Assembly: GCF_003918875.1 (NCBI RefSeq)
Contig: NW_025765173.1
Coordinates: 124,001 to 188,000, forward strand
Reading direction: 5' to 3'
From: Haliotis rubra
Lineage: Eukaryota
Length of the DNA: 64,000 bases
Shown: positions 12,760 through 44,783 of the stretch, in pieces
Position numbering within the stretch: the stretch's first letter is position 1
How the letters are laid out: each line of letters starts with the position of its first letter
Notes under the pieces: model-generated
What the model saw: only the letters and a program-made list of their open reading frames with translations
Database searches by the model: none
Told to the model about the DNA's origin: nothing
Program-made: the position numbers and the translations under genes

Positions 12760-12760
12760 A

Positions 12761-12816
<56 letters not shown>

Positions 12817-21652: not shown

Positions 21653-22014
21653 GTATCACCGGGATCATCGGCTCCTCTATCTACGCAATACGGACACAGC
21701 TGCTGGTGTCTCGGAACAACGTTACTCTATCCTGGGGGTTCGCCCTGGCGGTGCTAGGGAACGCTATGATGATACTGAGTGCCTGTCTCCTGTCTTCCCG
21801 ACAGAGACGTCCACCCAACCCCCAGGCCAACAGGATGCGGACTTGGTCGACGGAGGTGAACCTGCCGTCTGGTGGCTCTGCGGGATTTGCCTACTTGGGA
21901 GGATCAGGAGGCCCGATGGTCAACCCAGCCTTTCAGGACGCTTCGTTCGTGAAACCACCCGACTTTGCTGACGCTCCTCCGAGTTATGAGGAAGCAATGA
22001 GGGGTACAGCATGA
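21653..22014 (+). CDS. Claudin-like gene A, exon 3 (TM3-TM4, tail with PPSY); spliced protein 240 aa
   Basis: Acceptor TTTTCCCCGAAG|GT. Encodes GITGIIGSSIY...LSWGFALAVLGNAMMILSACLL...DAPPSYEEAMRGTA*. SWGF is typical of the family's TM4 entry. Confidence 0.88.
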
Positions 22015-22384
22015 TATAATCGACTCGGAACCGGCGGCCAATGTATTGTGTCGTGTGAACGCTGGGGTGAAGTCCTGGAATATTTTGAAATGAAATTAAT
22101 AGTGTTCTGAACGTGTTCCTCGCCTACCATCACAAAGAGCACAGGATACGTGGACAATACTGATCGATATGTATTGATTGTAACCTTTAATTAATGAGGG
22201 ACTAGGGACTGGCAAATGTACAGACCTATCAAATTTCATTCAAATCCATCAAACCCCTCTTTGTTGCTCTGCTTATTCAATACGTAAGATGTTTATCAAT
22301 CTAACAGTTAAAGATTACCCTAAGTACACAGAGGTCAAGGTCTAGACGGAAACTAGACAATGCACTAACGGGCACAGTGCCTGA

Positions 22385-22550
22385 CTCAATGGTTGAGTAT
22401 GGTTTTACGCTGCTTTAAGTGATATTCCAGAAATATTACTGAGCGGGAAACCAGAAATGACCTTCACACGTTGTACTTATGTAGGGAATCGAACCCGGAC
22501 TTTCTGCATGACGAGCGAACGCTTTTACCACTAGGCAACCCAACCGCCCC
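22385..22550 (-). mobile_element. SINE family 1 just downstream of the gene A stop
   Basis: TSD GGCA(C/T)AGTGCCTGA. Confidence 0.88.
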
Positions 22551-23289
22551 GGCATAGTGCCTGAAGTAGTTAATACGAACTGTTTATAAATTATTACATG
22601 TTATCCTTGAGGTAAGGTGTTATCATCAATAAATGTTCAGGGTGTAAAATTCGGTCATCATCTCCTCCAAAGACTTCTGTGGAGCAAGTGTAAGCTTTGT
22701 TTTTCACATCAACTGGGGTCAGAAGAGCTTGATGCATTCCATATTCACGTGATACATTCTATATTAATGTTTATACTGTAGAGTGGTTTTGGCGTTTGCA
22801 TAACTGCATATTATAGTGTGACATTAACACATGATTGACTTTAAAAATTGCAATATAATTATTACCTGTTTGTAACATGAAACCATATGCATTATTCAGG
22901 ATTCCTGCATAATATGCCATGCTTCAGGAGTGGTCAGGGAACGGTACAACACTGACTGAGCTTCAGGAACATCAGTGTCCACTGAAGTGTCTACCTCGAC
23001 ACTGTGCTGGGTGTAAATCAGGGGAACTCATTGTCCTTAGAGAACATTACTGCTAAAGCTGCAAGTGGTCATCTGTTAATCAGTAGTTATGACCTATGTT
23101 ACTCGAATCCTTTAACTAATGGAGATCAGGCAGTTAACGGGTTATGTTGTATGCGTCATATATGTAACATATTACACCAGCCATGTGGATTTAACAGACT
23201 CACGAATGTCAAAATAATACATATACTTTTAATACTGTTTCCTGTCGACAATTTAAATATATCAACATGACAACGGCGATCATTTCTGA

Positions 23290-23865
23290 ATTACGTCCAC
23301 TAAGATGACTATGTTCATTGCGTCCAAACTAATGTATGTATTATATTACGTCAAGAGTAATGTATGTATTGTTTTACGTCAACAACAATGTGTGCATTAT
23401 ATTACGTCAAATAATGTATGCATTGTTACGTCAGCAATAATGTGTGCATTATATTACGTCAAATAATGTATGCATTATATTACGTCAAGAGTAATGTATG
23501 TATTGTTTTACGTCAACAACAATGTGTGCATTATATTACGTCAAATAATGTATGCATTGTTACGTCAGCAATAATGTGTGCATTATATTACGTCAAATAA
23601 TGTATGCATTATATTACGCCAAAAATAATGTGTGCATTTGTACGTCAACAGTAATGTAAACATTATTTTACGCCAACAATAATAGATGCATTGTTTTACG
23701 TCAACAATAATGTATGCAATATATTATGTCAAACATAATGTATGCATATTTTACGTTAACAGTAAATTTTGCATGATATTACGTCAACAACAATGTCTGT
23801 ATTTGTTCATGTCCGCATTGTGTTTATCAGTAATACTTTCTGCATTATTTTACGCCAAACATAAT
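23290..23865. repeat. Minisatellite of about 27-30-bp units, each centred on TTACGTCA
   Basis: Units such as ATTATATTACGTCAAATAATGTATGC, decaying at both ends. Confidence 0.85.
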
Positions 23866-24021
23866 AATTGTGTAGAGTTGTTGCTGCTCTAACTAACCAT
23901 AATTATGATAACCAAAAATAACATAGCGGTCGAACGCAAAGATTGGACCTTTCAATACTGTCTCTGGTATTACATATTTTGTTTATGAGAGCTTGAACCA
24001 CTTTCCAGTTTTGGTACAGAA

Positions 24022-26634
24022 AATATGTTAAAGCTGAGAACATATACATATATGTACAAACATCTATCTGTTGAATATGTTAAAGCTGAGAACATATACA
24101 TGTATGTACACACATCTATCTGTTGAATATGTTAAAGCTGAGATCATATACATGTATGTACACACATCTATCTGTTGAATATGTTAAAGCTGAGATCATA
24201 TACATGTATGTACATACATCTATCTGTTGAATATGTTAAAGCTGAGAACATATACATGTATGTACACACATCTATCTGTTGAATATGTTAAAGCTGAGAT
24301 CATATACATGTATGTGCACACATCTATCTGTTGAATATGTTAAAGCTGAGATCATATACATGTATGTACACACATCTATCTGTTGAATATGTTAAAGCTG
24401 AGAACATATACATGTATGTACACACATCTATCTGTTGAATATGTTAAAGCTGAGATCATATACATGTATGTACAAACATCTATCTGTTGAATATGTTAAA
24501 GCTGAGATCATATACATGTATGTACATACATCTATCTGTTGAATATGTTAAAGCTGAGAACATATACATGTATGTACACACATCTATCTGTTGAATATGT
24601 TAAAGCTGAGATGATATACATGTATGTACACACATCTATCTGTTGAATATGTTAAAGCTGAGAACATATACATGTATGTACACACATCTATCTGTTGAAT
24701 ATGTTAAAGCTGAGATCATATACATGTATGTACACACATCTATCTGTTGAATATGTTAAAGCTGAGATCATATACATGTATGTACATACATCTATCTGTT
24801 GAATATGTTAAAGCTGAGAACATATACATGTATGTACACACATCTATCTGTTGAATATGTTAAAGCTGAGATCATATACATGTATGTGCACACATCTATC
24901 TGTTGAATATGTTAAAGCTGAGATCATATACATGTATGTACACACATCTATCTGTTGAATATGTTAAAGCTGAGAACATATACATGTATGTACACACATC
25001 TATCTGTTGAATATGTTAAAGCTGAGATCATATACATGTATGTACAAACATCTATCTGTTGAATATGTTAAAGCTGAGATCATATACATGTATGTACATA
25101 CATCTATCTGTTGAATATGTTAAAGCTGAGAACATATACATGTATGTACACATCTATCTGTTGAATATGTTAAAGCTGAGATGATATACATGTATGTACA
25201 CACATCTATCTGTTGAATATGTTAAAGCTGAGGGAACATATACATGTATGTACACACATCTATCTGTTGAATATGTTAAAGCTGAGATGATATACATGTA
25301 TGTACACACATCTATCTGTTGAATATGTTAAAGCTGAGATCATATACATGTATGTACACACATCTATCTGTTGAATATGTTAAAGCTGAGAACATATACA
25401 TGTATGTACACACATCCATCTGTTGAATATGTTAAAGCTGAGATCATATACATGTATGTACACACATCTATCTGTTGAATGTGTTAAAGCTGAGATCATA
25501 TACATGTATGTACACACATCTATCTGTTGAATATGTTAAAGCTGAGATCATATACATGTATGTACACACATCTATCTGTTGAATATGTTAAAGCTGAGAA
25601 CATATACATGTATGTACACATCTATCTGTTGAATGTGTTAAAGCTGAGATCTATACATGTATGTACACAATATCTGTGAATAGTAAAAGCTGAGAACATA
25701 TACATGTATGTACACACATCTATCTGTTGAATATGTTAAAGCTGAGATCATATACATGTATGTACACACATCTATCTGTTGAATATGTTAAAGCTGAGAT
25801 CATATACATGTATGTACACACATCCATCTGTTGAATATGTTAAAGCTGAGATCATATACATGTATGTACACACATCTATCTGTTGAATGTGTTAAAGCTG
25901 AGATCATATACATGTATGTACACACATCTATCTGTTGAATATGTTAAAGCTGAGATCATATACATGTATGTACACACATCTATCTGTTGAATATGTTAAA
26001 GCTGAGAACATATACATGTATGTACACACATCTATCTGTTGAATGTGTTAAAGCTGAGATCATATACATGTATGTACACACATCTATCTGTTGAATATGT
26101 TAAAGCTGAGAACATATACATGTATGTACACACATCTATCTGTTGAATATGTTAAAGCTGAGATCATATACATGTATGTACACACATCTATCTGTTGAAT
26201 ATGTTAAAGCTGAGATCATATACATGTATGTACACACATCTATCTGTTGAATATGTTAAAGCTGAGATCATATACATGTATGTACATGTTAAAGCTGAGA
26301 TCATATACATGTATCTATCTGTTGAATATGTTAAAGCTGAGATGTATGACACATCTATCTGTTGAATATGTTAAAGCTGAGATCATATACATGTATGTAC
26401 ACACATCTATCTGTTGAATGTGTTAAAGCTGAGATCATATACATGTATGTACACACATCTATCTGTTGAATGTGTTAAAGCTGAGATCATATACATGTAT
26501 GTACACACATCTATCTGTTGAATGTGTTAAAGCTGAGATCATATACATGTATGTACACACATCTATCTGTTGAATATGTTAAAGCTGAGATCATATACAT
26601 GTATGTACACACATCTATCTGTTGAATGTGTTAA
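24022..26634. repeat. 52-bp satellite, about 50 copies
   Basis: Unit AATATGTTAAAGCTGAGATCATATACATGTATGTACACACATCTATCTGTTG. Confidence 0.97.
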
Positions 26635-27143
26635 GGTTCCTTATTTACACGTTTTGTCCTAAATGTTTATTGTTCTTGCAATCAGAGAAAGATCATGTAT
26701 TCCTTTTGTCTCGGCTTTAGTGCATGCACGTTCATGCACGTTCATGCACGTTCATGCACATTGTTTCTAAGTCAAACACTGAGCTGTATATAGTTTATAC
26801 ATTGGTTTTGGCTGCTGTCATCCAGATAAAGACCACATGAGGTTCCGGAGTATGCAACCTACCAATCAGCAGATGGATTGCGGTATACCATTGACTTTGA
26901 TGTCCGTCACTACCGAATATTAAGAAGAACTATTAAGGGAACATGAAGCAACATTTTGCTTGATACCAATCAAAAGGTTATCCGTTTGCATTTGTTATAG
27001 ATATATTTACTTCTGTTGTGTGTGATTATGTTTTATTTGTAAATACTATGTGCTATTTCGTATATTTGTTATGTTTGGTACTTCTTTCATATACCAACTG
27101 GGCCGCCTCCCTGGTCTGGTGGTGTGAGCAGAGGCTACAGAGA

Positions 27144-27384
27144 GGTTGGTTTGCTTGTTTTTGAACCGCACTCAGCAATTTTCCAACTATATGGCGGCGG
27201 TCTGTAAATGATCGAGTCTGGACAGACAACCATGTGATCAACAGCATGAGCATCGATCTACGCAATTGGGATTCAATGACGTGTGTCAACCCAATCAGTG
27301 CGTCTGACCAACCGATCCCCTAAGTCGCCTCTTACGACAAGCATGGGTTGCTGAAGACCAATTCTAACCGGGATCTTTACGGGT
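27144..27384 (-). mobile_element. SINE family 2
   Basis: Full length, same 5' start. Confidence 0.88.
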
Positions 27385-27645
27385 TAATCCGGAGAGGTCA
27401 CTGGTTCGGTTACCAGCCACCATAAAATATGGTACGCGTGATTACCCTGACAGAGGACGACAATAACCGGTCAGCTCTGTGTGAGTGCGGTATCCTGTTA
27501 AACTGCGGCATGGTGACTCAGTGGAATAGCACTATAAAGCAGGGATACGTCCCGACTAGTACAAGCCGCTCTACCTACATACAGAGACGTGCATCATGTC
27601 AGTATATTCTCGAAGGCGACGTTAAACCTAACCTCACCTACCTTA
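27385..27645 (+). mobile_element. Old SINE of a third type (V-SINE-like)
   Basis: GGTTCG B-box remnant, AAAATATGGTAC, AGCACTATAAA, GACGTTAAACC end. Similar to 45340-45605. Confidence 0.45.
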
Positions 27646-27818
27646 CTAGTATCCTTACTCTTTGTGGTCAAACGCTGAGATGAGCTAAAGTTCACTCACG
27701 GACTTCAGAAAACATTACGGTTGCATAAACTAAGACGTCTGACGAGGGGTCAAAATACACCTGACATTTCCATATAGCTACGAATTACATACACCAGATT
27801 CACCCAAAGCAGTGCCTT

Positions 27819-27981
27819 AGAGTGAGTGAGTGAGAATGGTTTTAAGCCAATTTTAACAATATTCCAGCAATATCACGGCGGGGGACACCAGAAATGCACT
27901 TCACACATTTTACCCATGTGGGGAATCGAACCCGGGTCTTCGGCATGACGAACGTACGCTTTAACCACAAGGCCACCCAAC
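27819..27981 (-). mobile_element. SINE family 1
   Basis: Matches the family. Confidence 0.85.
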
Positions 27982-28189
27982 TAGGCTTAGAAGTCACTTG
28001 TGCACAATTTAACACTCAAGAACTAAAATATGTCATAATGTGCAAAACGCAGAAGAACATTCAAGCCAAACAGGCAAATTGAATTATTTCTTTGCATGCA
28101 TAACAAAGGGCACGGTTTGATAAGGGACCATTTGGCCAACGGAAAGTGCATAATTTCAGAAAAGAAGAAAACTTGCACTTCCCTTGCAA

Positions 28190-28276
28190 TGAATATTATC
28201 TCATCATGAATGTTATCTCATCATGAATGTTATCATGAATGTTATCTCATCATGAATGTTATCTCATCATGAATGT
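28190..28276. repeat. 17-bp tandem repeat
   Basis: ATGAATGTTATCTCATC, about 5 copies. Confidence 0.85.
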
Positions 28277-29571
28277 GTTCATATACAGATACAGTACATT
28301 TCAGTTCAACATTGTATGTTGGAGGTGATGGCCTTACAATATGCATAGTCAAATCTGAAAAGTATTATAATAGGGATGATTTATGGAAACGCTTTTCTAA
28401 TGTTGGAATGTGAACAAGGCCTCTCCACACACACTGCTTATCAACAGTACAAACATATCATAAAATATTCATCTTGGGTCACACACTTGCATGTACATGT
28501 ATTTTATCTGAAAGTTAGAAACCTCCGTCTTTTCATTCAATTTGGTCACGCTTTTATTCACGTCAACAGACTTATTTTCGTACGTGTAAGACAACCAAAT
28601 TCTAATTTTACGAAACGTTAAAAGTTAATATTATAACAGGGTCAAGAATGGACTTCATCCAAACTCGTCCGCCAAGGGAAAGCAAATTCATTGTCTGAAA
28701 ACTAAACAACTACAATCATCCGCCAGCTACACCGGGAGACGTAGACTTTTAGTCAGATAAACTACATCTGATGGTGTTTACTATTGGTTTACAGTTATAT
28801 ACTTACCTCCATGTGCTAGACTACTATTAGCTCATAGTCATAGAGTGACTCTTCTTGCAGACTTTCTGCCACTGTTCAGTTATTGTATTGTCAAACATGC
28901 TTGTACATCTCTAAGCTGACAAATTACATCTGATCGTGTACACTGTTGGCCTTTTGGTTTGCTATTAGCCTATAGCCATATGTGCCTTTCTTGAACTTTG
29001 CATCTCAAACAGTCAGATTGTCTGTCTATATCTGATTTTATGTATCACTGGCATACAACCTTGAAGTTTACATTCTCTGTCAAACATTGTGCCAATCTTG
29101 AACCGGATTGTACCAGCCGGAGATAGAGTATATCTGATTTTATACAGCAGTTTTATATAATACTGTATATCTGTACAGCCATAGAATTACTTCATTACAC
29201 TTTTCAATGTCCACCTCCTTGAACTTTGTTATGAAGCTTGTACAACAAGCTGATGCCTGTTCGTACCCATGTGTCTGTACCCATTATGCTGGAATAAAAA
29301 AACAAAAAAAACCCCAAAAAACCTACACTGGGAGATACCAATCTAAACAGACCACGGAAAACTCCCGGCGACAACACATGTTCGCTAATAGGGTAAGCAT
29401 GTACTGGCCTTCCACCAGGGACAAAAAACAACTATTTTGTCTCAAAACCTAGCACCTGGATTCGAACATATGATCATACGTTTCGGCACGCCTAAGGGAG
29501 GCAACTCTGAAGTTGGGCTTGTTGACGAGTAAACTGATCACACCTTATGTCTCTGATACATAAGGCAAACA

Positions 29572-29723
29572 TGTAAGGGACATTCTCGCGATCTCGTGTT
29601 TTTGGTACATAGCACGTTTTGTCAAAAGTCGACAAATCTCGCATTCTCGCACTTTTGGCATTTTTAGCTTGTTTCTGAAGGTCGAGATCGCGAGAATGCG
29701 AGATCGCGAGAATGTCCCTTACA
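29572..29723. mobile_element. MITE
   Basis: Perfect 25-bp TIR TGTAAGGGACATTCTCGCGATCTCG, with sub-terminal repeats. Confidence 0.75.
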
Positions 29724-30254
29724 GTATTCCATAGACACAAGCATTGCATAGTATATGTTACCCTGACCATTGTGCAACACTGCCCTCAAACAGTGCTGTC
29801 CCACTCAAGTGTATACAACACACAACAGTGCCTCGGTAGGTGGCGTTGGTGTCTCGAATACCAACCACTGAATATTTCAGTCATAATGCTATCACGAAGA
29901 TTAACTGAAGGCGAAGAGGATGTCACTATATCGGAGAAACCTAGTTGCTACTTGTACGATAATACTACTGTTAGCCTTTCGAATGCTTCATGTTTGAAGA
30001 GAATCAATTATACTCGATCAGTATGAGGTATCAATTTACTTGGTAAACACTTTGATTTTACGTCCGCTTTACCTTAATACAATAAAGTAGAATTTCTGGA
30101 GAAGATCTCAAATGTTTTGAGATGAACTTGACTCTAACGTACGATATGACCTTTTTTGGTCATAGTTCCATCAGATTGAAGTATTAACAGACGGACAATG
30201 TCAAGGTTACCACTGCTAATCCCCGTGAATTTTGATAGAAACAAATAATTACAA

Positions 30255-30379
30255 ACTGAACAACATTAGAAACGCACCACACTAAAATGCAGAGACGATG
30301 CTCAGATATCAGGGGTACATTTCATTCTGATGAGGATTTTTCGTATTATACGGGTGGTGCGTTTCTAATGTTGTTCAGT
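30255..30379. mobile_element. Tc1/mariner-like MITE
   Basis: Perfect 26-bp TIR ACTGAACAACATTAGAAACGCACCAC in a TA-rich context. Confidence 0.7.
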
Positions 30380-31059
30380 ATATTTAAGTTAAATTGAATA
30401 TTTAAAGGATATTAAATTTAAAGGATCCCCGGTGAGGCCATTATAGCTAAAATGGACAGTTAATGGAAGACCTCGGGATTCTGCAAATGACAATGCCCTC
30501 AAAAATAGCATTACCCTTATAATATTATAACCCGGACCTTCACGGATTGGGTGGGCGGAGGGAAAGTGATATGGTTCAGGGACTGAGAGACAGACTGTCT
30601 AAAGTACATCGCCAGCCAGACTGTCTTACCATGTCTAGCCACGGGTAGTTTACGTCAGAATGTCTGAATCTGACAACGCTCAGCGACGAGAGTCGACATT
30701 TATGTTCATACACTGCTTAAACGATACTTGGCATCCAAAACCGTAATGGTTGTGTTTCTATTGTGACAGTCATCCCATTTACTTGCTGTGTTTTTGCGAA
30801 TGGCGTCCGTTAGATAGCAAGGGGTGAGTGTTTTGACATTTGTCATGCTGGTGTCCATACGAGCCGAAAACATGTATTCTTGACGCGTGTGGCAGTGACA
30901 CATTTATTTCAACGAAAAGTTCCCGATAGCATTAACGCATATATTATATATTCAGAATAATGAACGAGATGCCACCACTGCATCTCCTTGACTGAACTGT
31001 GATAATCGGTGTCACCTGTTCTTATCTCCTCACCATTATGACTTTCAGACACCTTTCAA

Positions 31060-33430
31060 TCAGTCTGTAACACACAGGCTCGCCCTTCACACACTGTCTG
31101 TAAGACACAGGCTCGCCCTTCACACACAGCCTGTAACACACAGGCTCTCCCTTTACACACAGTATGTAGCACACAGGCTCGCCCTTCACACACAGTATGA
31201 AACACACAGGCTCGCCCTTCACACACAGTCTGTAACTCTTAGCCTCTCCCTTCACACACAGCCTGTAACACACAAGCTCTGAATTCACACACAGTCTGTA
31301 ACACACAAGCTCTCCCTTCACACACAGTCTGTAACTCTTAGCCTCTCCCTTCACACACAGTCTGTAACTCTTAGCCTCTCCCTTCACACACAGTCTGTAA
31401 CACACAAGCTCTCCTTTCACACACAGTCTGTAACTCTTAGCCTCTCCCTTCACACACAGTCTGTAACACACAAGCTCTCCTTTCACACACAGTCTGTAAC
31501 TCTTAGCATCTCCCTTCACACACAGTCTGTAACACACAAGCTCTCCCTTCACACACAGTCTGTAACTCTTAGCCTCTCCCTTCACACGGTCTGTAACACA
31601 CAAGCTCTCCCTTCACACACAGTCTGTAACTCTTAGCCTCTCCCTTCACACACGGTCTGTAATTCTTAGCCTCTCCCTTCACACAGTCTGTAACACACAA
31701 GCTCTCCCTTCACACACAGTCTGTAACACACAAGCTCTCCCTTCACACACAGTATGTAACTCTTAGCATCTCCCTTCACACACAGTCGGTAACACACAAG
31801 CTCTCCCTTCACACACAGTCTGTAACTCTTAGCATCTCCCTTCACACAGTCTGTAACACAAAAGCTCTGAATTCACACACAGTCTGTAACACACAAGCTC
31901 TCCCTTCACACACAGACTGTAACTCTTAGCCTCTCCCTTCAGACACAATCTGTAACTCTTAGCCTCTCCCTTCACACACAGTCTGTAACACACAAGCTCT
32001 CCTTTCACACACAGTCTGTAACTCTTAGCCTCTCCCTTCACACACAGTCTGTAACACACAAGCTCTCCTTTCACACACAGTCTGTAACTCTTAGCATCTC
32101 CCTTCACACACAGTCTGTAACACACAAGCTCTCCCTTCACACACAGTCTGTAACTCTTAGCCTCTCCCTTCACACGGTCTGTAACACACAACACACACAG
32201 CTCTCCCTTCACACACAGTCTGTAACTCTTAGCTCTCCTTCACACAGTCTGTAATTCTTAGCCCTTCACTCACCTTCACACAGTCTCCCTTCACACACAT
32301 GTAAGCTCTCCCTTCACACACAGTCTGTAACACACAAGCTCTCCCTTCACACAGTCTGTAACTCTTAGCATCTCCCTTCACACACAGTCTGTAAACACAA
32401 AAGCTCTCCTTCACACACAGTCTGTAACTCTTAGCATCTCCCCTTCACACAGTCTGTAACACAAAGCTCTGAATTCACACACACATCTCTGTAACCTTAG
32501 CTCTCTCCCTTCACACACAGTCTGTAACACACAAGCTCTCCCTTCACACACAGTCTGTAACTCTTAGCCTCTCCCTTAACACACAGTCTGTAACACACAA
32601 GCTCTCCCTTCACACACAGTCTGTAACTCTTAGCCTCTCCCTTCACACAGTCTGTAACAGCACTCAAGCTCTCCTTCACACACACACAAGCTCTCCCTTC
32701 ACACACAGTCTGTAACTCTTAGCCTCTCCCTTTCACACACAGCCTGTAACACACAAGCTTCACACACTCTGTAATTCACACACAGTCTGTAACACACACA
32801 CACAGCTCTCCCTTCACACACAGTAACTCTTAGCTTCACACAGTGTAACACACAAGCTCTCCCTTCACATTCACACACAGTCTGTAACACAAAAGCTCTG
32901 AATTCACACACAGTCTGTAACACACAAGCTCTCTCAGACTGTAACTCTTAGCATCTCCCTTCAGACACACACGCACAAGCTCTCAATTCACACACTTCAC
33001 ACACACAGAGCCTGTAACACACAAGCTCTCAATTCACACACAGTCTGTAACACACAGGCTCTCCCTTCACACAGAGCCTGTAACACACAAGCTCTCAATT
33101 CACACACAGTCTGTAACACACAAGCTCTCCCTTCACACACAGTCTGTAGCACACAGGCTCTCCCTTCACACACAGTCTGTAACACACAGGCTCTCCCTTC
33201 ACACACAGCGTGTAACACACAAGCTCTCAATTCACAGACAGTCTGTACCACACAGGCTCTCCCCTTCACACAGTGTGTAACTCTTAGCCTCCCCCTTCAC
33301 ACACAGCCTGTAAGCTCGCCCGACAGAGACAGCGTGTAACACACAGGCTCTACCTTCACACACAGTCTGTAACACACAGGATCGCCCTTCATAGACAGTC
33401 TGTAACTCTTACCCTCTCCCTTCACACACA
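31060..33430. repeat. 33-bp satellite with two alternating variants
   Basis: CTTCACACACAGTCTGTAAC followed by ACACAAGCTCTCC or TCTTAGCCTCTCC. Confidence 0.95.
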
Positions 33431-33446
33431 TACTTTCTCTGTGTCA

Positions 33447-34495: not shown

Positions 34496-34644
34496 ACTGA
34501 GCAATGACGATGTTTATTACATAATGGCTTCTTCTCTACATGTACTTGTTCCCTAACATCATACCCTAATAAATAATAATAATTGATTTGTGTAGCGCCT
34601 TCCTTCCAACTTTTGCTGCTCACTGGCGCTTAAAAGTTTCTGAA

Positions 34645-34737
34645 CTGGGCTTCACACATTGTACCCATTTAGGGAATCGAACCCGGGTCTTCGCCGTGAC
34701 AAGCGAACGCTTTAACCACTAGGCTACCCCACTACCC
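34645..34737 (-). mobile_element. SINE family 1, head only
   Basis: Matches the family head. Confidence 0.8.
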
Positions 34738-35454
34738 TTCCATAGACGTGAACGACAGACAAACATGCAGAGGTGAGTGACGACACGTGAACTCCACATG
34801 ATACCACATAGCATTCAGTGAAGAAAAATACTGTGATTACACCTTTAAATGGAATTTACGCGTTGTAGCAATGCTGAGCGCATATCGCTCAGCTGACATG
34901 TTTCCATCCGAACTAACAAAAATCGATAAGGTATACAAACAACTATTTCAATTGCTCGCGGATTTGATCCATGACCTCTTTTCAGATACGTTAAAAAGTA
35001 ACTTCCTGCGTTCATTTCTCCGGGTACGTCATGCTAACGCCAAAGATTATTGTTTTACATGAGGTAAAACAACCACGCATGCTTTTATCAGAGGTAGGCA
35101 AACAGACTGATCGACATGCCGGACTAGTCACCATGACGACCAACATGTTATTAGGCAACTATTGATCTTGTGTCCACTTTAGCTACTAATTAGATATCAT
35201 TTCAATTTCCAAGTATTCACATGCATAACGGTGAATATCTGTTTCCCAGAAGATCAATAACGCAGCACATGACGATGGCTACCTAAATACCACATGTACT
35301 CATCCACCGACTCGTGTTGGTTCTTATAGCCTTGTGGAGGCCCCACGATTTGGTATTACGTGGGTGGGGCAGGGTATATGTGGGCGTGGCGCCGTGTGTG
35401 CTTGTGTGCGTTCGTGTGTGAGAGAGAGTGAGTGAGTGAAGAGTTTGAGGGTGA

Positions 35455-35619
35455 NNNNNNNNNNNNNNNNNNNNNNNNNNNNNNNNNNNNNNNNNNNNNN
35501 NNNNNNNNNNNNNNNNNNNNNNNNNNNNNNNNNNNNNNNNNNNNNNNNNNNNNNNNNNNNNNNNNNNNNNNNNNNNNNNNNNNNNNNNNNNNNNNNNNNN
35601 NNNNNNNNNNNNNNNNNNN
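35455..35619. other. Assembly gap
   Basis: N run. Confidence 1.
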
Positions 35620-36128
35620 CATGGTGCGGGTAGAGGTGTAAAGGTTAGGGTGAGGATGTGTGCAAGGGGTAGTGTGGGGATAATGGACTGAAGCGTTTCA
35701 TTTGTAAATGAAATATGTAGAGAAACAAAATTGAGTTTGTCAGTGAAAACGTTGTCACGGTATTGCCACCAACTGTTTCAGGTACGTATTGTCGTATACC
35801 TCTGGATCCGTGTGTGAAAAAAATATCGTCTTTCAACAGGAACTATTTCAGCACAAAGAAGAAATCGTGATAATGTTCAAAACCTCAAAACGTTTTTTTC
35901 ACAAATATTTGCATGTCGTAACAGTTTATCGACGACATGACGCAAGGGAAATTGTTAACGGCGACAAACAAACGCTCATTCCAATAGCCCTTTCAAGTCA
36001 CAGTATTATGTTACCTAGTGATTATCTGTAGTTGTCAATGTTGCCGTTGATAAATAGTCCGTCTCACAGTTCCTGAACCTTCCGTCCAGCCTCTCTGTAA
36101 TACAAAATCCCTTCATGAAGCGATTTTC

Positions 36129-36270
36129 TTCTTTGAGTGGCATGTAAGAAGTCGTGAAGTACAATACTGACAAATTTATGGATAAACTATTTTATTTTGT
36201 GAGAGCGTCGTTTCGATAGAGGTTAATTCCTGCTTGACAACGGTACAAGATTCTAAATAAATTATGTCAG
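36129..36270 (-). mobile_element. Copy of the 10454 element with one arm largely deleted
   Basis: Reverse complement matches about 10505-10633, including CGAAACG and the tail. Confidence 0.65.
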
Positions 36271-36338
36271 TAAAGTCAAGATTTCACTTTGGTTTAAGTT
36301 CTGAATACCCCCTCTCACTGGGCTTCCTTCCAGTGTAG

Positions 36339-36555
36339 ACCCGTAAAGATCACGGTTAGAATTGGTGTTTAGCAACCCATGCTAGTCGTAAGAGGCGACT
36401 TCCGGGATCGTGTGGTAAGACTGGCTGACTTGATTGACACATGTCATCGCATCCCAACTGCGTAGATTGTCTGGTCCAGATTTTATTATTTACAGACCGC
36501 CGACATATAACTGGAATATTGCTGAGTGCAGCGTTAAACAACCAACCAACCAACC
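36339..36555 (+). mobile_element. SINE family 2
   Basis: Same 5' start, (AACC)n tail. Confidence 0.85.
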
Positions 36556-36641
36556 TTCCATTATAAATAGAGATATGTGTTTCCCAGACTTAGCGTAAGT
36601 CTAGTAGACAAGTTGCACGTATGTTGGTATTCGACGAATAG

Positions 36642-36656
36642 GGGAATTTCCAGGAA
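36642..36656 (+). promoter_or_regulatory. Overlapping NF-kB-type (GGGAATTTCC) and STAT GAS-type (TTCCAGGAA) motifs about 750 bp upstream of the gene B ATG
   Basis: Exact consensus matches; function untested. Confidence 0.35.
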
Positions 36657-37405
36657 GCAGCGTTGAACACACAAAGGGAAAATACGTCATCTGGGTTATA
36701 CAGCTGCGCAGCATGCATGCAATGTACACCGTGTGAGACAGACCTCATGCACAGTTGAGCCATGTTGACATAGCTGACAACGCCTAGTTTGATAAGCTTA
36801 CAAGGTTAAACCAGGGATTATTCAGTTCTGTTTAGGCTGAGCTTGGAAAATAGTGAACTATTTGACACGCGGTGTCACTTTACGATCGATTTCCTTGGCG
36901 CATAAAACGTAACCAGGTTAGTATGTAGTTTGTTGACATAACCCTGTCCCAGAGATCGATAACACCTGGTGATGGTGCACATGTCGTGCAGTAATATTGT
37001 GTCATCTTCATTCAGTAGGTGAAATGCATGACCTGTCAACATGCAGGTACACGAAACGATTGATTCCGGAGGGCTGGGTCTTACCTAACACCTGTAAGAA
37101 AACACCATTGTGACCTATGAGGAAATTACGTGACGCATACTGTTAGATAAGGGAATGACACAGGTTGTATTCAGTGAGTGACACTCTTAGCCACCGCGCA
37201 CCCTCCAGCGTACATCATTTATTCAGTAGTGTCCATAGTACTGGACGACAAGCACCCGGGGGGAATTTCTGTGCGTGTTTACACAAAGAGTTTTCTTATA
37301 TTCAGTTAGCACAATGTGCTGTTCAAAGAATCGGCTCAATTCCTAGGAATTCTGTTCAAGTGGAGGAGATAAGCACAACAGGGAGTGAGATACCGAAGTG
37401 CTGCC

Positions 37406-37607
37406 ATGCCCCACTGGGAGACCAAGGGCAGGCTCTACCGTTCCGGTGTGGGGGTGATGGTTCTCGGGTTCCTGGGATATACCGTAGCTTTTGGAGTGCC
37501 TGCGTGGAGACGTGATGGTGACACGACTGTCCTGTCCTCTGGGCTGTGGCAGTACATGTGTGACGGTCTTCACAACTGCCAGACATACTCTGCTGTAGAA
37601 ACAGACA
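37406..37607 (+). CDS. Claudin-like gene B, exon 1
   Basis: MPHWETKG...FGVPAW-x11-GLWQYMCDGLHNC. Donor A|GTAAGT, phase 1. Confidence 0.9.
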
Positions 37608-37665
37608 GTAAGTACATGAACTAATCATAGGTATTCAGTATTATTCAAATGTTCATTAAATATCA

Positions 37666-37918
37666 ACCCGTGAAGATCCGGGTTCGAATTGATCTTCGGT
37701 AACCCATGCTTGTCGTAAGAGGCGACTGACGGGATCGGGTGGTCAGGCTCGCTGACTTGGTTGACACATGTCATCAACAGATACAGCACCAATTGCGTAG
37801 ATCGATTCATGGTGTTGATCACGGGATTGTCTGGTCCAGACTCGATCATTTACAGACCGCTGCCATATAGCTGGAATATTGCTGAGTGCAGCGTTAACCA
37901 TCCAGCAAACCAGACAAC
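37666..37918 (+). mobile_element. SINE family 2, intron 1 of gene B
   Basis: Full length, imperfect TSD TCATTAAA(T/A)ATC. Confidence 0.9.
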
Positions 37919-38186
37919 TAAATCATTAAAAATCGCACCTTAATGAAAATGCTGATAGTCATAAAATACTAATTTCATGTTTTGTCTCATACTCCAGCAT
38001 GTTGCCTGTTGTGTGACACTGTTTGATGTCACCATAGTATCACCCCTATCATTTCTGTTTAAGATTAAATATTTATAAGGTTCATAATTTCCCAGATGAT
38101 TTCGTAAATGTTAATTATACCCACAACACTAGAGAATAACCAGTCTTGACTTTATGACGAAACAGATTTCATTTCATGTAAAACGC

Positions 38187-38436
38187 ACCCGTGAAGATCC
38201 GGGTTAGAATTGATCTTCAGTAACCCATGCTTGTCGAAAGAGGCGACTGACGGGATCGGGTAGTCAGGCTCGCTGGCTTGGTTGACACATGTTATCGGTT
38301 CCCCATTGCGCAGATCGTTGCTCATTCTGTTGATCACTGGATTGTCTGGTCCAGACTCGATTATTTAGAGACCGCCGCCATATAGCTGGATTATTGCTGA
38401 GTTCGGTGTAAAACTAAACTCACTCACTCACTCACC
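38187..38436 (+). mobile_element. SINE family 2, intron 1 of gene B
   Basis: Full length, (ACTC)n tail. Confidence 0.9.
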
Positions 38437-38456
38437 CACATAAAATGCGAAATGAC

Positions 38457-38890
38457 TAGGACTGGTATATCGCAGTACGCTTTTCAAACGATACGTATTA
38501 CAATATTTTTGTCTGAATCGGTGTATTGGGTAAAGAACATACATGACTTTTTTTGTGATTATCGTTATGGTTTAAATTTAAATCTACACAGACTTCACAA
38601 CAAATGTTTTCCTTCGTTTTCAATGACAAAACGGCATACTGTAATACTATAAATTGTATACAAAAGAAAATAGAATCCCTGATGATGCAACCTAATTTTG
38701 CGATTGCTGTTATCAAAACCATAACATGTATGTGTAGGGATTATAATGTAGAAAATAGGATTAACATGTACAATTAGTGTCACTCACTGTCAAACACTGA
38801 AGTTCCCAATATATCGCAATACGTATCACAAAACGGGTACCTGAATCGCAATATATTGCAATGCAATTTATTTGCCAATACACAGCCCTA
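38457..38890. mobile_element. Degenerate hAT-like MITE
   Basis: Ends TAGGACTG / CAGCCCTA, with sub-terminal ATCGCAATA-type repeats in inverted orientation. TSD unclear. Confidence 0.4.
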
Positions 38891-39872
38891 AACATAACGG
38901 AATAGGAATGGAATGGAATGGAATATAATGTATCAGTGAAGACATCAGATCTTCACCAAGAGGATACCAATCCAGAGAAACATACATTCGAAGTGTAGGG
39001 CTTTTTGGCACTTGTGTGCTTGTTGTGCATTTGTGCATAAAGAAGGGTCAATTTTCGCTCAACCAAAAGGAGGTACATTGCTGATTATCTTTCGATATCG
39101 CGTACACCTTAGGGCTAGGAGTATTCCTGTAGGCGTTTTGAATTCTTTGCTTGCAATTCTTCTGTTACCGGGTGTTCGCGAAAACTCAAACGTATTCTAC
39201 TTGATCGGAGATCTCGTCACAAGCACATGCAAGGGCAAGGCAATTGTCAACAAAATTCTAACTTACACTATACGGGGAAAATAGCAACTTTAAAACTGAA
39301 GATGGTAGAAGGTTTGACTGTGATACGCGACTAATATTTTTGACGTTTTTATGGACTTAACCTTATGGGTGACAATAAGGATAATGTGTCGGAGACATGT
39401 TTCGACTCTTCCTTTTGCTTGCAGTAGGGGATGCTGGATAACACAAGCTATTTGTTTACATTAGAGCCAGATATATACGTGATTAAATTATGCTTATGAT
39501 GACGCTGGTTCTTGGCGCGGCACGAACAGGTACACGAGTATGATAGTGTTAATAGAAAACATGGCGTAGACAAGCTTACTCAACTAGCGTATGACATCCT
39601 GCAGCATTTCTTTCTTGGTAGCAATAAGTCTAGAAATAGACTACAATGGACAATTGAAACATGTGAAATTGAAAGGTAGGAGTACGACTTTCAATCATTT
39701 TACTCGCAAAAACATTACATTATAAAGCGTTTAATCTCTCTAAACGTGTCATCTTCAACACGTAACAGGAAACGCGATAGTCAAAATATTTTTAGATAAA
39801 CGTCGAATGCACACTGCGTCAGAGAAGCCAGTTGAAACAATAGTACGTTGCGATTAACATCGATATGCAACT

Positions 39873-40078
39873 NNNNNNNNNNNNNNNNNNNNNNNNNNNN
39901 NNNNNNNNNNNNNNNNNNNNNNNNNNNNNNNNNNNNNNNNNNNNNNNNNNNNNNNNNNNNNNNNNNNNNNNNNNNNNNNNNNNNNNNNNNNNNNNNNNNN
40001 NNNNNNNNNNNNNNNNNNNNNNNNNNNNNNNNNNNNNNNNNNNNNNNNNNNNNNNNNNNNNNNNNNNNNNNNNNNNNN
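39873..40078. other. Assembly gap in intron 1 of gene B
   Basis: N run. Confidence 1.
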
Positions 40079-41168
40079 CCCCGACAAGTCAAGTGAGCTG
40101 CATCAGTGCAGTACTAGGATGCTCCAGGGCTGGTAGGTTGAGAATGACTTCAAGGAATGTTTTTATAACTATTGTTTCTGAAACGACTGAGCAAAATATA
40201 GAATAGTGAAGAAATATTAAACCTGTTTTGTTTAAGGGTAATATTATTTTTTATCACATAGGGAGTAAATTTCCACAACGTCGGGGAAAATTGGGACAAA
40301 ACCCTTTTTTCATTAAAAATTCAGGAGATGGAAAACACATACAGTCTTGAATTTAGAATTATTTTAACACTCGCATTACATCTTGAAATGAGAGTGTAAA
40401 TTGCTTACATTATAAACTTTTTATTTATATTTTTGTCTTGTTACCCAACGGTGCCAGAGCTACATTACTTCGGGTTTTCCTACCACATTAAGCTGACACC
40501 CGTGATATAACTGGAATACTGTTCAAAACGACTTTAAACACAATACACTCACGACGAAGTCCACACGTTTATATCCTCATGGCATAATTATGTAAACTCA
40601 AGACACTTCCTTTTTAATTCACCTGGAACGAATCCTTGCATTGTCTACTTTCCTCTGTGCAAGGAAAGACCCACCTTGACCCAGTACTATGACTAAAGTG
40701 ATATTCATCTCCTGTCAATCACGTAATTAATGTATCACTTAGAGGAAAACACGCCGTATTATCAGAGCAATAAATCACATTGTAAAGTGAGTACTTGTGC
40801 AGCGTCAACATGGACTTTGTTCTTACCGTATGGACCCAAATATAAACTTCGGGCCGATCAGTAGAGGGTCTTAACATTAGGTATGACAATCTGTAGTAGT
40901 CCGAAATGCATTATTTTCTGATGTGAGCAAGTGTGGAAGTTATTATATTTAGACGCATATACGGGCCACGATTGGTGAAACTTTGTGTAACAGCATAGAT
41001 TAGTGCAGCGGTATGGGCATTTCTGGAAGGGGCAAGAGCTTGAATCTATCATCTCACTTTACATCAAGGCCGGCAGCTGTGTGAAGATCGTTCTTCATGT
41101 CACAAGTTAGTTTTTCACCTGAGAATACAGTGGAACATATGGTACAAGCTGAAATTGGGTAAAGCATC

Positions 41169-41354
41169 TAATTTGAGCGGCATTTTAGAAGTTGGGAAGT
41201 ACAATATTTACAAATGTTATGGATAGCAACTTCTATATTTCGTGAGTGTGCCGTTTCGTGGACCTTGTATCTCATTCCTGCTAGAATCTGTCTCGAAACG
41301 TCGCAGTCACCAAAATATAGAAGGTGTTATCCATAAAGTTTGTCTATATTTTAA
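41169..41354 (-). mobile_element. Related palindromic Penelope-like element in intron 1 of gene B
   Basis: Arms ACAAA..TTATGGATA..A.CTTCTATATTT, CGAAACGTC, the same tail on the left, and a candidate TSD GGTA(A/T)AGCATC at 41158-41168 / 41355-41365. Confidence 0.6.
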
Positions 41355-42004
41355 GGTATAGCATCGTAAATCAGTTTCGTCACTCATAAGGACATGTGCT
41401 CCATATGACCACCTTATGTTAAGACGGCCTTTTTAAGACCTTGAAAGTTGTGACGTTGATCTTTCGAGCTGGTGACTCTTGGTAGAAAAAGCAGCCTCGC
41501 TTCTATCTGTGAAATATAGACACTAATGCCTTAACTTACTGAAACACTGCTCGACTGGAACGATAACGTTTGGGAAATAGTAATAGTAATAGTCCGCTAA
41601 TATGGCGCTCATATCCTGGCACATTGCCTGCTCACGGCGCTACGTACATTACTATCCCCGGTCATAGGACACTATCGTACTTTCCGATATTTTTTTCAAC
41701 TCCCTGCGTAACATACAGCCATGCTGTGTTTATCCCCTGGTGACATATACTGGTATAGGAGACTGCAGGTAGCGCTTATTACTGACAATACGACCTAGCG
41801 ACAGCAAGGCAATTACAGCCGGCTACCACGCAACAAGCCTTGGCTGACCAGGTAAACCACACCTGCTGCGATAAGGACGCAGTAGTTGGTCTTTCCCGTG
41901 GCGTTTGAAATGTTTTCCCATTGAATTCCCTTTAAGATAATTTAATGCACTAAGTCTGACTCACGGCATTTCTTTAACGGAGTTGTGGGTTAATCTCGTG
42001 TTTA

Positions 42005-42251
42005 GGCCATGTATAAAAATATTCCTGTTTCTCATTACCAGCTGACTAAAAAATTCGACCCGACCCTAAGATTGTTTAATTTTTTACACTAGAGAAAATG
42101 CAACTTTGACTCTCAAAATGTGCATGAATTTTTCCACAGAAATCAATGTGTTTTGGACATAAAATAAATAAAATGTAAACATATAATCCGCCCGCCCGCC
42201 CCATATTTGTTTTAAAAAGTGACGAGAAGCACGAATATTGTTTATGTGGTC
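42005..42251. mobile_element. Degenerate MITE with TTA flanks (Harbinger-like)
   Basis: TTA|GGCCATGTATAAAAATATT ... AATATTGTTTATGTGGTC|TTA. Confidence 0.45.
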
Positions 42252-42480
42252 TTAGAGCGTTAGCTCGGGTACAACGTGAGAAGCCCATTTCTGGTGTCCG
42301 CCGCCTTGATATTGCTGGAATATTGCTGGACACTAAAATTGTCATTTTTACTATATAAGAAAACCCAGGCAATCAGCGCGTCGAGCGACACGCTTCAGCC
42401 AGGCAACCACATCGTCTTGTATATTACTTTCTGAGCAGCGGAACACTGAACGTATACCTTAAACCATTCTTCTCTTCCAG

Positions 42481-42630
42481 CGTTGTTCCAGGTATCCCGA
42501 GTGCTGGCGTGCATCGCACTGGCTCTCTGTTTCATCGCCCTGTGTCTTATCTTCCTCCATAACTGCACGGCCTACTCGAAAAGTCTTCAGTCAGAAAATG
42601 CCTTCATCTCCATATTCCCTGTGTTTTGTG
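42481..42630 (+). CDS. Claudin-like gene B, exon 2 (150 nt)
   Basis: Acceptor TTCTCTTCCAG|CG. Encodes TLFQVSRVLACIALALCFIALCLIFLHNCTAYSKSLQSENAFISIFPVFC. Donor G|GTATGA. Confidence 0.9.
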
Positions 42631-43742
42631 GTATGATTCTTTTACATTGTCCCCAGCTCGGAAGAATGCAACACATGTCAGCCTGACCTAGCTCACACAT
42701 GTCCACTATCTATCAATAATCATATAAATGGTTTAAGAAAAGGATAACAAAACCTCTCAAGACAGGGATTTTCAGATAATAGGATGATATATTTGACTAA
42801 ATTTCTCTTTACAGATGCCTGCGGTTAATATTGACATTAGACTATGCTATTCGTGAAATCACGAGTTGGTTCAAATCGGTTAATACAAAGCTACTTCCGC
42901 ATGGGAACGCAACCTAGTAACACAGACATCTGAAAACAAGCAACTTGTGCTCCATAATATGAAATCTAATCCTAGTATTCGGTGAAAATAATGCCAGCTT
43001 CTACATCATGCCGTGTTCACATTATGGAAGCTGCCATCCATAAATTCTCCCCTTTATGCATATCAGTTCTTAATGCCAGTCAAAGACTTTAAAACATTCG
43101 TGTTCTTATAGTGTTGACCTCGACGGTGTGTATCGCTGATCATGCTACCAAACACAGATGCACCGTAGTTGATGTAGATGTCACCGTAATTGACTACGTC
43201 TAGGGACTGCATTTCCTCCTTTTGAACTATTTGTGATAGGGATACGGATATGAACAACTGTTAGTTTTCGGCGCGGTTAATTAATATTTGATAATTAATT
43301 CAAATAGTAAAAGGTCAGTCAAAGAGCACATGCTTAAAATCGAGCTCATAGTAGACAGGACTATGATGGTCCGTATGCATGAACTGTGTTGGCAAATAAA
43401 AGCGACATAATCTTTCCCATGATCATACCTAATCTCTGCGGAAAGCTGAATCTATGGCACGGTTCTGACTATATCACATTCATGAGTTTATTTTATAATA
43501 CTCCTGTTTTCAAGTTGGTTTTATTGTTTGCAGAGAGTTTTCATTTCAAAGTGTGTAAGGCTTACACTCGTATTGCACGTTAACATGAGGCTTCTAGCCA
43601 GTCAAGTTACCAGCTTATAGGCAACTAAGTAAGATTTTGCAATTAAATACTTTCCATTCTATGTTCATATTAATACACGTGGCAGATGTTCCTTGCAATA
43701 CATTTCAATTGGTGTCAAGATGTAAACCTCATTATAGATAAG

Positions 43743-44022
43743 ACCCGTGAAGATCCGGGTTAGAATTGATGGTAAGAGACGACTAACGGGATCGGGTGGT
43801 AAGGCTCACCCCAGTTGCGTAGATCGATGCTCATGCTATTGATCACTGGATTGTCTCGCTTACGTAGTTGACAGATGTCTTCTACAGTTTCAACACCAAT
43901 AGCGTAGAATCGATGCTCATGGTGTTGATCACTGGATTGTCTGGTCCAGACTCGATTACTTACAGACCGCCGCCATATAGCTGGAATATTGCTGAGTGCG
44001 GCGTTAAACTTAAACTCACTCA
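43743..44022 (+). mobile_element. SINE family 2 with internal deletion and duplication, intron 2 of gene B
   Basis: The GATGCTCATG...GATCACTGGATTGTCT segment occurs twice. TSD CTCATTAT(A/T)GAT. Confidence 0.85.
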
Positions 44023-44376
44023 CTCATTATTGATGAATGACAACACAAACTATTCTGATGAATTGTTAACTGTTTTATCTGATGTGTAGTAGCAATATCA
44101 GTATCATCAGCATTAACTGATTCGAAAATATTAACACGTCAACACCAGGGAATAACCAGTCTCGATTATCCTCCGGAACACATTCAATGAGAGTATAAGG
44201 CAAAACAGCGATGGTAATTATGCTAAAAAATCAATGATGACACCAGGTGTTCGCGAAAACTACCAAGAAAGTCCTAACATTATCACATCTTCATAAGATG
44301 AAAAACACCATGCCGTTCCATACAATCAGTAGATGATACGTTGACATGTTTCTAATAGGTTTATTTTCAATTCCAG

Positions 44377-44783
44377 GCCTTCTCGCCATGTCTTCATGTG
44401 TGGTTTACCTTGAACAAGGCATAAGTTCCATCTATTGGGGAGCCGTATTAGGATTTGCCGCCAGTGGTTGTACCATATTTGGAGGCATCTGCATGGGCGT
44501 AGGGTTGCACATTGACAGGCTTAAAGCGGCGAGCACTCAACAAACGTCAAGTACAGTCCAGAACCAGACTGCTTTCAACCAAGACATTACGACAATGGCA
44601 ATTCCAGTGAACGTCATTCCCTCAAATGGGGCTCAGACAAATATGCCAATGGTTTCAATGGCCTCGAATACAAACACAGACTGTACCGGATCCTCGGATC
44701 AACAGCTTGCAACACAAGTCGATCAACAAGCGAGACTAAATCCATCTGCACCACCGCCCGACCCTGACTTCTTATACTACTGA
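44377..44783 (+). CDS. Claudin-like gene B, exon 3 (tail with PSAP); spliced protein 252 aa
   Basis: Acceptor TTTTCAATTCCAG|GC. Encodes GLLAMSSCVVYL...IYWGAVLGFAASGCTIFGGICMGVGLHIDR...LNPSAPPPDPDFLYY*. Confidence 0.88.

What the first reader, a model, noticed from the sequence alone, without database searches (positions are those of the whole stretch)
21960..44783. Paralog tails partition the two viral-type late-domain motifs: PPSY in A, PSAP in B
Seen: the tails are non-homologous. A ends ...DAPPSYEEAMRGTA*, B ends ...LNPSAPPPDPDFLYY*, and C has neither motif. Known: PPxY binds WW domains of NEDD4-family E3 ligases, and P(S/T)AP binds the TSG101 UEV domain (ESCRT-I). The two motifs co-occur in ARRDC1, LITAF/SIMPLE and retroviral Gag, where they drive budding or endosomal sorting. 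Classical claudins instead end in a PDZ-binding YV. Inference: these tetraspans may be routed to multivesicular bodies or extracellular vesicles, possibly as hetero-oligomers in which A recruits the ligase and B recruits ESCRT-I. That would be a trafficking or vesicle system rather than a static junction.
Basis: partly seen in the sequence, partly recalled or inferred. Interest (0 to 1): 0.7.

Follow-up and report, generated by a model that had tools for sequence, protein, structure and literature searches.

The report
Abalone claudin-like proteins with sorting tails
Four neighbouring abalone genes encode claudin-like membrane proteins, and two of them end in short conserved proline motifs that likely act as separate tags for endosomal sorting, a familiar trafficking signal on an unfamiliar scaffold rather than a two-protein vesicle-budding machine.

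Summary
The motifs are real. Gene A (240 aa) ends with PPSY, gene B (252 aa) with PSAP, and gene C has neither. All are three-coding-exon PMP22/claudin-fold tetraspans, identical to annotated Haliotis rubra proteins. PPSY and PSAP are each kept in 4 of 4 abalone species. B's last 13 residues are invariant in a drifting tail; A's motif lies in a tail that is conserved throughout. Spliced A and B contigs occur in the same public runs.

The clean partition fails. Gene D, just past the window, also has PSAP but loses it in 2 of 4 species. A paralog on another contig carries both motifs overlapping in one tail (PSAPPPY). Six of 27 claudin-like tails sampled in this genome carry a motif (0.9 expected), as do snail relatives. 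The family therefore repeatedly keeps a whole or partial P[ST]APPxY-type box.

Best reading (inferred, binding untested): each protein carries its own endosomal-sorting signal, with A recruiting a NEDD4-type ligase to a nearby invariant lysine and B binding TSG101 or another C-terminal partner. I found no evidence for an A+B hetero-oligomer or for vesicle budding. This is a modest new variant of known PY/PSAP membrane cargo or adaptors.

The parts
11557..11761 (+). Gene A coding exon 1 (TM1, W-GLW-C-C loop)
   Evidence: protein equals P0001; contigs run exon 1 into exon 2 (table 8)
18796..18951 (+). Gene A coding exon 2 (TM2)
21653..22014 (+). Gene A coding exon 3 (TM3, TM4, 72-residue tail, stop)
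21922..21933 (+). NPAF in A's tail (NPxF-type sorting-motif candidate; label recalled), invariant in 4 of 4 species
21952..21954 (+). Lys221, the only lysine in A's tail, invariant in 4 of 4 species, 8 residues before PPSY; candidate ubiquitin acceptor (inferred)
21976..21987 (+). PPSY (PPxY) motif of A, within an 18-residue invariant run
37406..37607 (+). Gene B coding exon 1
   Evidence: protein equals P0004
42481..42630 (+). Gene B coding exon 2
   Evidence: GT..AG joint to exon 3 in 3 of 4 runs
44377..44783 (+). Gene B coding exon 3 (TM3, TM4, 88-residue tail, stop)
44742..44780 (+). B's invariant terminal 13 residues: PSAP (44742-44753) followed by an acidic/aromatic end
51324..56081 (+). 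Gene C, coding exons 51324-51540, 55575-55724, 55855-56081; 197 aa; short tail without either motif
   Evidence: equals P0003
58404..61903 (+). Gene D coding exons 1 (58404-58641) and 2 (61754-61903). Exon 3 lies past the window (L002:2930-3360) and carries PSAP followed by PY; 272 aa
   Evidence: equals P0002

Best explanation
A, B, C and D are tandem claudin-fold tetraspan paralogs, and the conserved PPSY of A and PSAP of B are likely independent, self-contained endosomal-sorting signals, probably partial versions of a P[ST]APPxY-type box that this family also carries intact in another paralog. Shown: the gene structures, the fold assignment (from predicted models), motif conservation and motif distribution. 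Inferred: A binds WW domains of a NEDD4-family ligase, is ubiquitinated on its single invariant tail lysine and is internalised toward multivesicular bodies and lysosomes, with NPAF as a further sorting element. B, whose distal tail has no lysine, would reach ESCRT-I directly through TSG101, or uses the longer terminal block for another partner. C, with a short tail, would be the stable surface form. The paralogs would thus differ in turnover or location rather than form one budding machine.
For: Fold: the B model (pLDDT 64.5) matches MP20 at Z 15.1 and claudin-15 at Z 15.0 over residues 1-170; A scores 36.4 bits on PF00822 against a cut-off of 26.7. Both tails are predicted disordered and follow TM4. 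Conservation: PPSY 4 of 4, PSAP in B 4 of 4; B's 13-residue invariant run lies in a tail with 43 of 89 invariant columns (permutation p 0.0014). K221 and NPAF are invariant in A. Family distribution: 6 of 27 sampled tails carry PPxY or P[ST]AP against 0.9 expected; 6 of 10 tails of 40+ residues; outside the cluster 3 of 23 against 0.71 (p about 0.015). The C2852 paralog has PSAPPPY in cis; P0020 and P0029 (Lymnaea) each have two PPPY. Precedent: a single C-terminal PPxY suffices for TMEM127 to bind WWP2 (PMC12720080, passages); SIMPLE/LITAF needs its PSAP for endosome-to-lysosome trafficking (PMC3514783, passages).
Against: No binding or localisation was tested. A's PPSY does not stand out from its own tail (57 of 72 tail columns invariant, core 139 of 171; p 0.12 for the run). 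The four species form two close pairs, so there is about one deep contrast, and the permutation ignores autocorrelation. D's PSAP became ATAP in 2 of 4 species, so it is dispensable there. B's invariant block extends 9 residues past PSAP, which TSG101 binding alone does not explain. Common ancestry of the boxes is not shown: A-B tail similarity is not significant (p 0.74), B-D is borderline (p 0.06), aligners stack proline patches, and the tree leaves A's link to B/C/D and the place of the C2852 paralog unresolved (support 56/81), so convergent gain is possible. The tail sample is incomplete and some tails may continue in further exons.
Confidence: 0.55

Rival explanations
1. One reading: A and B hetero-oligomerise, with A bringing the NEDD4-type ligase and B bringing ESCRT-I in trans, driving intraluminal or extracellular vesicle budding (subfunctionalisation of a composite late domain).
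For: Both motifs are kept in 4 of 4 species. A has the lysine and PY while B's distal tail has no lysine. Spliced contigs of both occur in the same runs: A in 4 of 4 (chosen for holding A), B's exon 2-3 joint in 3 of 4. An intact composite exists in a paralog. Single-PY adaptors can work as pairs (TMEM127 + SUSD6, PMC12720080, passages).
Against: The distribution is not exclusive: D has PSAP in 2 of 4 species (H. asinina D has PTAP and PSAP), and the family reaches the cis arrangement elsewhere. A and B are only about 24% identical and are not shown to be sister lineages. Presence in bulk runs of unknown tissue does not show co-expression in one cell. Nothing here points to extracellular vesicles rather than lysosomal turnover.
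Confidence: 0.12
2. A (and the C2852 paralog) is a TMEM127/NDFIP-like adaptor: the claudin fold would grip a partner membrane protein, and the tail would bring a ligase or ESCRT to degrade that partner rather than itself.
For: TMEM127 binds WWP2 through one C-terminal PPxY (PMC12720080, passages). MOSMO is a claudin-fold subunit of a membrane E3 complex (bioRxiv 10.1101/2025.09.11.675358, passages). Claudin-fold auxiliary subunits (TARPs, GARLH4) rank among the fold matches.
Against: No partner was identified. A has one PPxY and no LPxY in its tail, while NDFIP2 needs several PY motifs to activate the ligase.
Confidence: 0.15
3. B's PSAP is incidental to a longer proline-rich and C-terminal ligand (class II PDZ-like aromatic end, or an SH3/EVH1-type site; labels recalled), and the proteins are junctional or auxiliary subunits anchored by their tails.
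For: All 13 terminal residues of B are invariant, including the last four. The C2146 paralog also ends in two aromatic residues. D tolerates PSAP to ATAP while keeping APP. PDZ ligands in invertebrate claudin-like proteins are often divergent (PMC3879130, passages).
Against: It does not explain A's PPSY plus lysine, or the excess of canonical motifs across the family.
Confidence: 0.13
4. The motifs are neutral by-products of proline-rich tails in closely related species.
For: Single-tail chance is 1.5-3.5% and the finding was picked after the fact. A's orthologs are 84-94% identical overall.
Against: B's invariant end in a drifting tail (p 0.0014); family excess of 6 against 0.9; none of 22 listed coding variants in A and B falls in either motif, although 10 change other tail residues (small target, and the tool's lists were cut).
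Confidence: 0.05

Closest known systems
PMP22/EMP/MP20/claudin superfamily (PF00822, PF13903)
   Same: Four TM helices, the W-GLW-C-C first loop, and a predicted claudin fold (B model vs MP20 Z 15.1, claudin-15 Z 15.0).
   Different: Gastropod-type, fast-evolving tandem paralogs with long proline-tipped tails and no terminal YV. B, C and D fall below Pfam cut-offs.
TMEM127 / NDFIP-type NEDD4-family adaptors
   Same: Multi-pass membrane protein with a C-terminal cytosolic PPxY (A); single-PY members can act in pairs (PMC12720080, passages).
   Different: No homology to them was shown here; WW binding and adaptor activity are untested; A has one PY motif.
LITAF/SIMPLE (and ARRDC1, recalled)
   Same: PSAP (with PPxY) in a cytosolic proline-rich region linked to ESCRT-I and endosome-to-lysosome sorting (PMC3514783, passages). 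The C2852 paralog has both motifs in cis.
   Different: No LITAF or arrestin domain; a tetraspan scaffold; A and B each carry only one of the motifs.
MOSMO (MEGF8-MOSMO-MGRN1 complex)
   Same: Claudin-fold tetraspan tied to ubiquitin-dependent membrane-protein turnover (bioRxiv 10.1101/2025.09.11.675358, passages).
   Different: MOSMO has a short cytoplasmic tail and serves a RING ligase; here the predicted ligase is NEDD4-type, bound by the tail.

Membership tests
PMP22/claudin superfamily | W-GLW-C-C signature in the first extracellular loop | tested here: met
   W, GLW and the second Cys are invariant in 14 of 14 rows; the first Cys is present in A-D; signature as given in PMC3879130
PMP22/claudin superfamily | Four TM helices with claudin fold | tested here: met
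   B model: top matches MP20 Z 15.1 (rmsd 2.7, 154 aligned) and claudin-15 Z 15.0 (rmsd 3.1, 156 aligned). A model (pLDDT 54.9): best match claudin-3, E 7.8e-3, none at E <= 0.001
PMP22/claudin superfamily | PF00822 score above the curated cut-off | tested here: inconclusive
   A 36.4 vs 26.7 (met); B 17.9 (E 0.003, below); C and D no hit
Classical tight-junction claudins | C-terminal YV-type PDZ ligand | tested here: not met
   A, B, C and D end in RGTA, FLYY, SVSG and ADQH
Classical tight-junction claudins | Forms junctional strands or a paracellular barrier | not testable with these tools
   needs localisation and freeze-fracture or barrier assays
NDFIP/TMEM127-type NEDD4 adaptors (gene A) | Conserved cytosolic PPxY | tested here: met
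   PPSY in 4 of 4 species, after TM4, in a region predicted disordered
NDFIP/TMEM127-type NEDD4 adaptors (gene A) | Several PY motifs, as in canonical activating NDFIP2 | tested here: not met
   one PPxY and no LPxY in A's tail; criterion from PMC12720080
NDFIP/TMEM127-type NEDD4 adaptors (gene A) | WW-domain binding and ubiquitination of a partner | not testable with these tools
   needs pull-down and ubiquitination assays
LITAF/ARRDC1-type dual-motif proteins | PPxY and P[ST]AP in the same chain | tested here: not met
   not in A, B, C or D; met by sequence only in the C2852 paralog
   D also has PSAP (2 of 4 species); another paralog has both
   spliced contigs of both in the same runs (A 4 of 4 by choice, B joint 3 of 4; two studies; runs only guessed to be RNA, tissue unknown)
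   needs co-immunoprecipitation and vesicle proteomics

The most novel reading that the evidence does not exclude
A composite PSAPPxY late-domain box of an ancestral gastropod claudin-fold tetraspan was split after tandem duplication, so that A (PY plus lysine) and B or D (PSAP) must co-assemble to recruit a NEDD4 ligase and ESCRT-I in trans. This would be a host-encoded, two-component, Gag-like budding scaffold built on the claudin fold, with the C2852 paralog as its one-chain version.
Probability: 0.1. Interest if true: 0.7.

Novelty: new variant of a known kind. Interest (0 to 1): 0.32.

Why it matters
PY and PSAP tails are well known on LITAF-, NDFIP- and TMEM127-type membrane proteins, but the nine literature searches run here listed no paper describing them on claudin-fold tetraspans or describing these abalone genes. 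If functional, part of the expanded mollusc claudin-like family would be endosomal cargo or ubiquitin adaptors rather than junction proteins. The natural series (both motifs, PY only, PSAP only, none) would also be a ready test set for how composite short motifs decay after duplication. The impact is limited: the motifs are common, the genes are lineage-specific, and no function is tied to them yet.

Tried and rejected
Complex prediction of the A and B membrane domains: no verdict (score 0.02, mark 0.34, alignments not used, controls not folded). This is neither evidence for nor against binding.

Genome-wide DNA pattern count for P[ST]APP[SPTA]Y: 58 matches against 74 for the reversed control. 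Of 30 loci read, most were short frames in a dispersed repeat, so the count says nothing about how common the motif is in proteins; it did recover the C2852 motif.

Full-length profile searches were crowded out by chance candidates and returned only 5 and 4 proteins, so there is no deep ortholog set. The representative search gave 16 hits, 2 of them unrelated repeats (P0021, P0025) that I dropped.

Run search: no holder on record as RNA was listed.

Trees could not place A or the C2852 paralog, so an ancestral composite motif is not established.

ESM Atlas returned only claudin-clan look-alikes (best 0.91) with no structure search. Earlier-findings look-ups returned nothing.

The idea that the window's repeat-derived PPPY/PTAP words are coding was rejected: they lie outside the spliced exons.

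No supplements were read; tail-motif tables in supplements could bear on the novelty claim.
Full report
Setting. The window is G000:C283:124001-188000 of a 1.38-Gb genome. It holds four tandem plus-strand genes with three coding exons each and phase-1 GT-AG introns: A (11557-22014, 240 aa), B (37406-44783, 252 aa), C (51324-56081, 197 aa) and D (starting at 58404; last exon in the next stretch, L002:2930-3360; 272 aa). The models equal database proteins that the source names 'uncharacterized protein' of Haliotis rubra (P0001, P0004, P0003, P0002). Orthologs exist in H. asinina, H. rufescens and H. cracherodii; for C only three species were found, one of them partial.

What the proteins are. 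All carry the W-GLW-C-C loop of the PMP22/claudin superfamily. Only A passes the Pfam cut-off (36.4 vs 26.7 bits); B scores 17.9, and C and D give no PF00822 hit. AlphaFold2 models show four helices and a low-confidence tail (A pLDDT 54.9; B 64.5). The B model matches MP20 (Z 15.1), claudin-15 (Z 15.0) and claudin-19 (Z 14.7) ahead of unrelated bundles. The A model's best Foldseek row is claudin-3 at E 7.8e-3, with none at E <= 0.001. By claudin topology the tails after TM4 are cytosolic (established knowledge).

Observation. Tail shuffles give these motifs 3.5% and 1.5% of the time. The same words occur 11 and 16 times in six-frame translation of the window, nearly all in repeats, so frame and conservation are what count.

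Conservation. A: PPSY is kept in 4 of 4 species, within an 18-residue invariant run that also holds the tail's only lysine (K221); NPAF just upstream is also invariant. But the whole tail is as conserved as the core (57 of 72 vs 139 of 171 columns), so the motif does not stand out (p 0.12). B: the last 13 residues are invariant in 4 of 4 species while only 43 of 89 tail columns are (p 0.0014, ignoring autocorrelation). The block runs from PSAP to the aromatic C-terminus, and the distal tail has no lysine. D: PSAP followed by PY in H. rubra and H. asinina (the latter also has PTAP), but ATAP in the other two; D's best conserved block lies elsewhere. The four species form two close pairs, so independent contrasts are few. 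Among 22 coding variants listed in public contigs (13 in A, 9 in B; the lists were cut), 10 change tail residues and none touches either motif; this is weak support given the small target.

Partition or family trait. Reading last exons of claudin-like genes found elsewhere in the genome gave 27 tails including A-D; broken copies were left out. Six carry PPxY or P[ST]AP against 0.9 expected from shuffles; 6 of the 10 tails of 40 or more residues do; outside the cluster 3 of 23 do against 0.71 (p about 0.015). One of them, on contig C2852, has PSAP and PPPY overlapping in one tail. The C2146 paralog has PPVY, which its H. asinina ortholog lacks. P0020 and its Lymnaea cluster-mate P0029 each carry two PPPY; the Littorina and two Gigantopelta relatives have none. 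A multiple alignment stacks the APP boxes of A, B, D, C2852, Lymnaea and Littorina, but pairwise tail similarity is not significant (A-B p 0.74, B-D p 0.06). In the core-only tree B, C and D form a clade (100/99), while A+B+C+D has support of only 56/81 and C2852 is unplaced. So PSAP is a labile trait of the B/C/D clade, PPxY recurs across the wider family, and the cis arrangement exists. Decay of one composite box is plausible but unproven; convergent gain fits too.

Expression. In four runs (two studies, guessed to be RNA, chosen for holding A), contigs join A's exons in 4 of 4 (all three exons in one contig in X3 and X17). B's exon 2-3 GT..AG joint appears in 3 of 4, with pieces of both exons in the fourth. 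This shows spliced forms of both in the same bulk samples, not co-expression in one cell.

Mechanism. Most likely (0.55; the binding steps are inferred) each tail is its own sorting signal. A would bind a NEDD4-family WW domain and be ubiquitinated on K221, B would engage TSG101 or another partner of its terminal block, and C would lack such control. Rivals: a TMEM127-like adaptor for other cargo (0.15), a non-ESCRT C-terminal ligand in B with a junctional or auxiliary role (0.13), the in-trans budding pair (0.12), and neutrality (0.05).

Literature. Seen as passages: PMC12720080 (a single PPxY of TMEM127 binds WWP2; TMEM127 and SUSD6 act as a pair), PMC3514783 (SIMPLE's PSAP is needed for endosome-to-lysosome trafficking), bioRxiv 10.1101/2025.09.11.675358 (MOSMO has a claudin fold within a membrane E3), PMC8811627 (PPSY/PPPY in ENTREP bind ITCH), PMC3879130 (many invertebrate claudin-like proteins lack PDZ ligands) and PMC4815072 (general). 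Nine searches, seen as listings and abstract starts, showed no paper on these genes or on PPxY/PSAP tails of claudin-fold proteins; the library lacks most subscription journals and no supplements were read. The labels NPxF, class II PDZ and SH3/EVH1, and the ARRDC1 and Gag motif content, are recalled.

Verdict. The motifs are real and conserved on real genes, and a trafficking role is plausible. The headline of a two-paralog partition of late domains is not supported as a system. New variant of a known kind; interest 0.32.

Noticed in passing
G000:C2852:177946-177966 (minus strand; L075, L076): Unlinked three-exon paralog with a 120-residue G/P/Q/Y-rich tail carrying overlapping PSAP and PPPY; the best candidate in this family for a LITAF-like dual signal. 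Its orthologs were not retrieved.
   Followed up: partly
L002:8359-8560 and L003:about 426-600 (just downstream of gene D): Fifth, D-like copy with deletions and frameshifts in exon 1 and no exon 3 found in the remaining contig; probably a pseudogene.
   Followed up: partly
G000:C465 (L085, L086, L113): Two further D-like copies, both frameshifted just after TM4; in one the displaced tail frame has lost PSAP. May be pseudogenes or an alternate haplotype.
   Followed up: partly
window 2147-4936, minus strand: Inhibitor-of-apoptosis gene exons with several BIR domains (PF00653, E 4e-25 and 6.5e-11), lying head-to-head with the tetraspan cluster.
   Followed up: partly
window 52474-52920, plus strand: LINE-type reverse-transcriptase remnant (zf-RVT, E 7e-10) inside gene C's first intron.
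   Followed up: no
window e.g. 2688, 6950, 21374, 36497, 43967, 57665: Very abundant dispersed repeats translate to PTAP- and PPPY-like words in six-frame readings, a source of false late-domain calls in this genome; they have very high contig depth in the laid runs.
   Followed up: partly
L025 (G000:C2770:259313-259933, minus) and L024: Two single-frame claudin-clan genes with proline/tyrosine-rich tails; L025 ends near PPPYY.
   Followed up: no
G000:C546 and C2279 (L098-L107): A separate tandem cluster of claudin-like genes with tails of only 6-16 residues.
   Followed up: no
window 31000-33400, 46300-50000, 53000-55000: Long degenerate tandem-repeat arrays giving spurious long open frames between and within the genes.
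   Followed up: no
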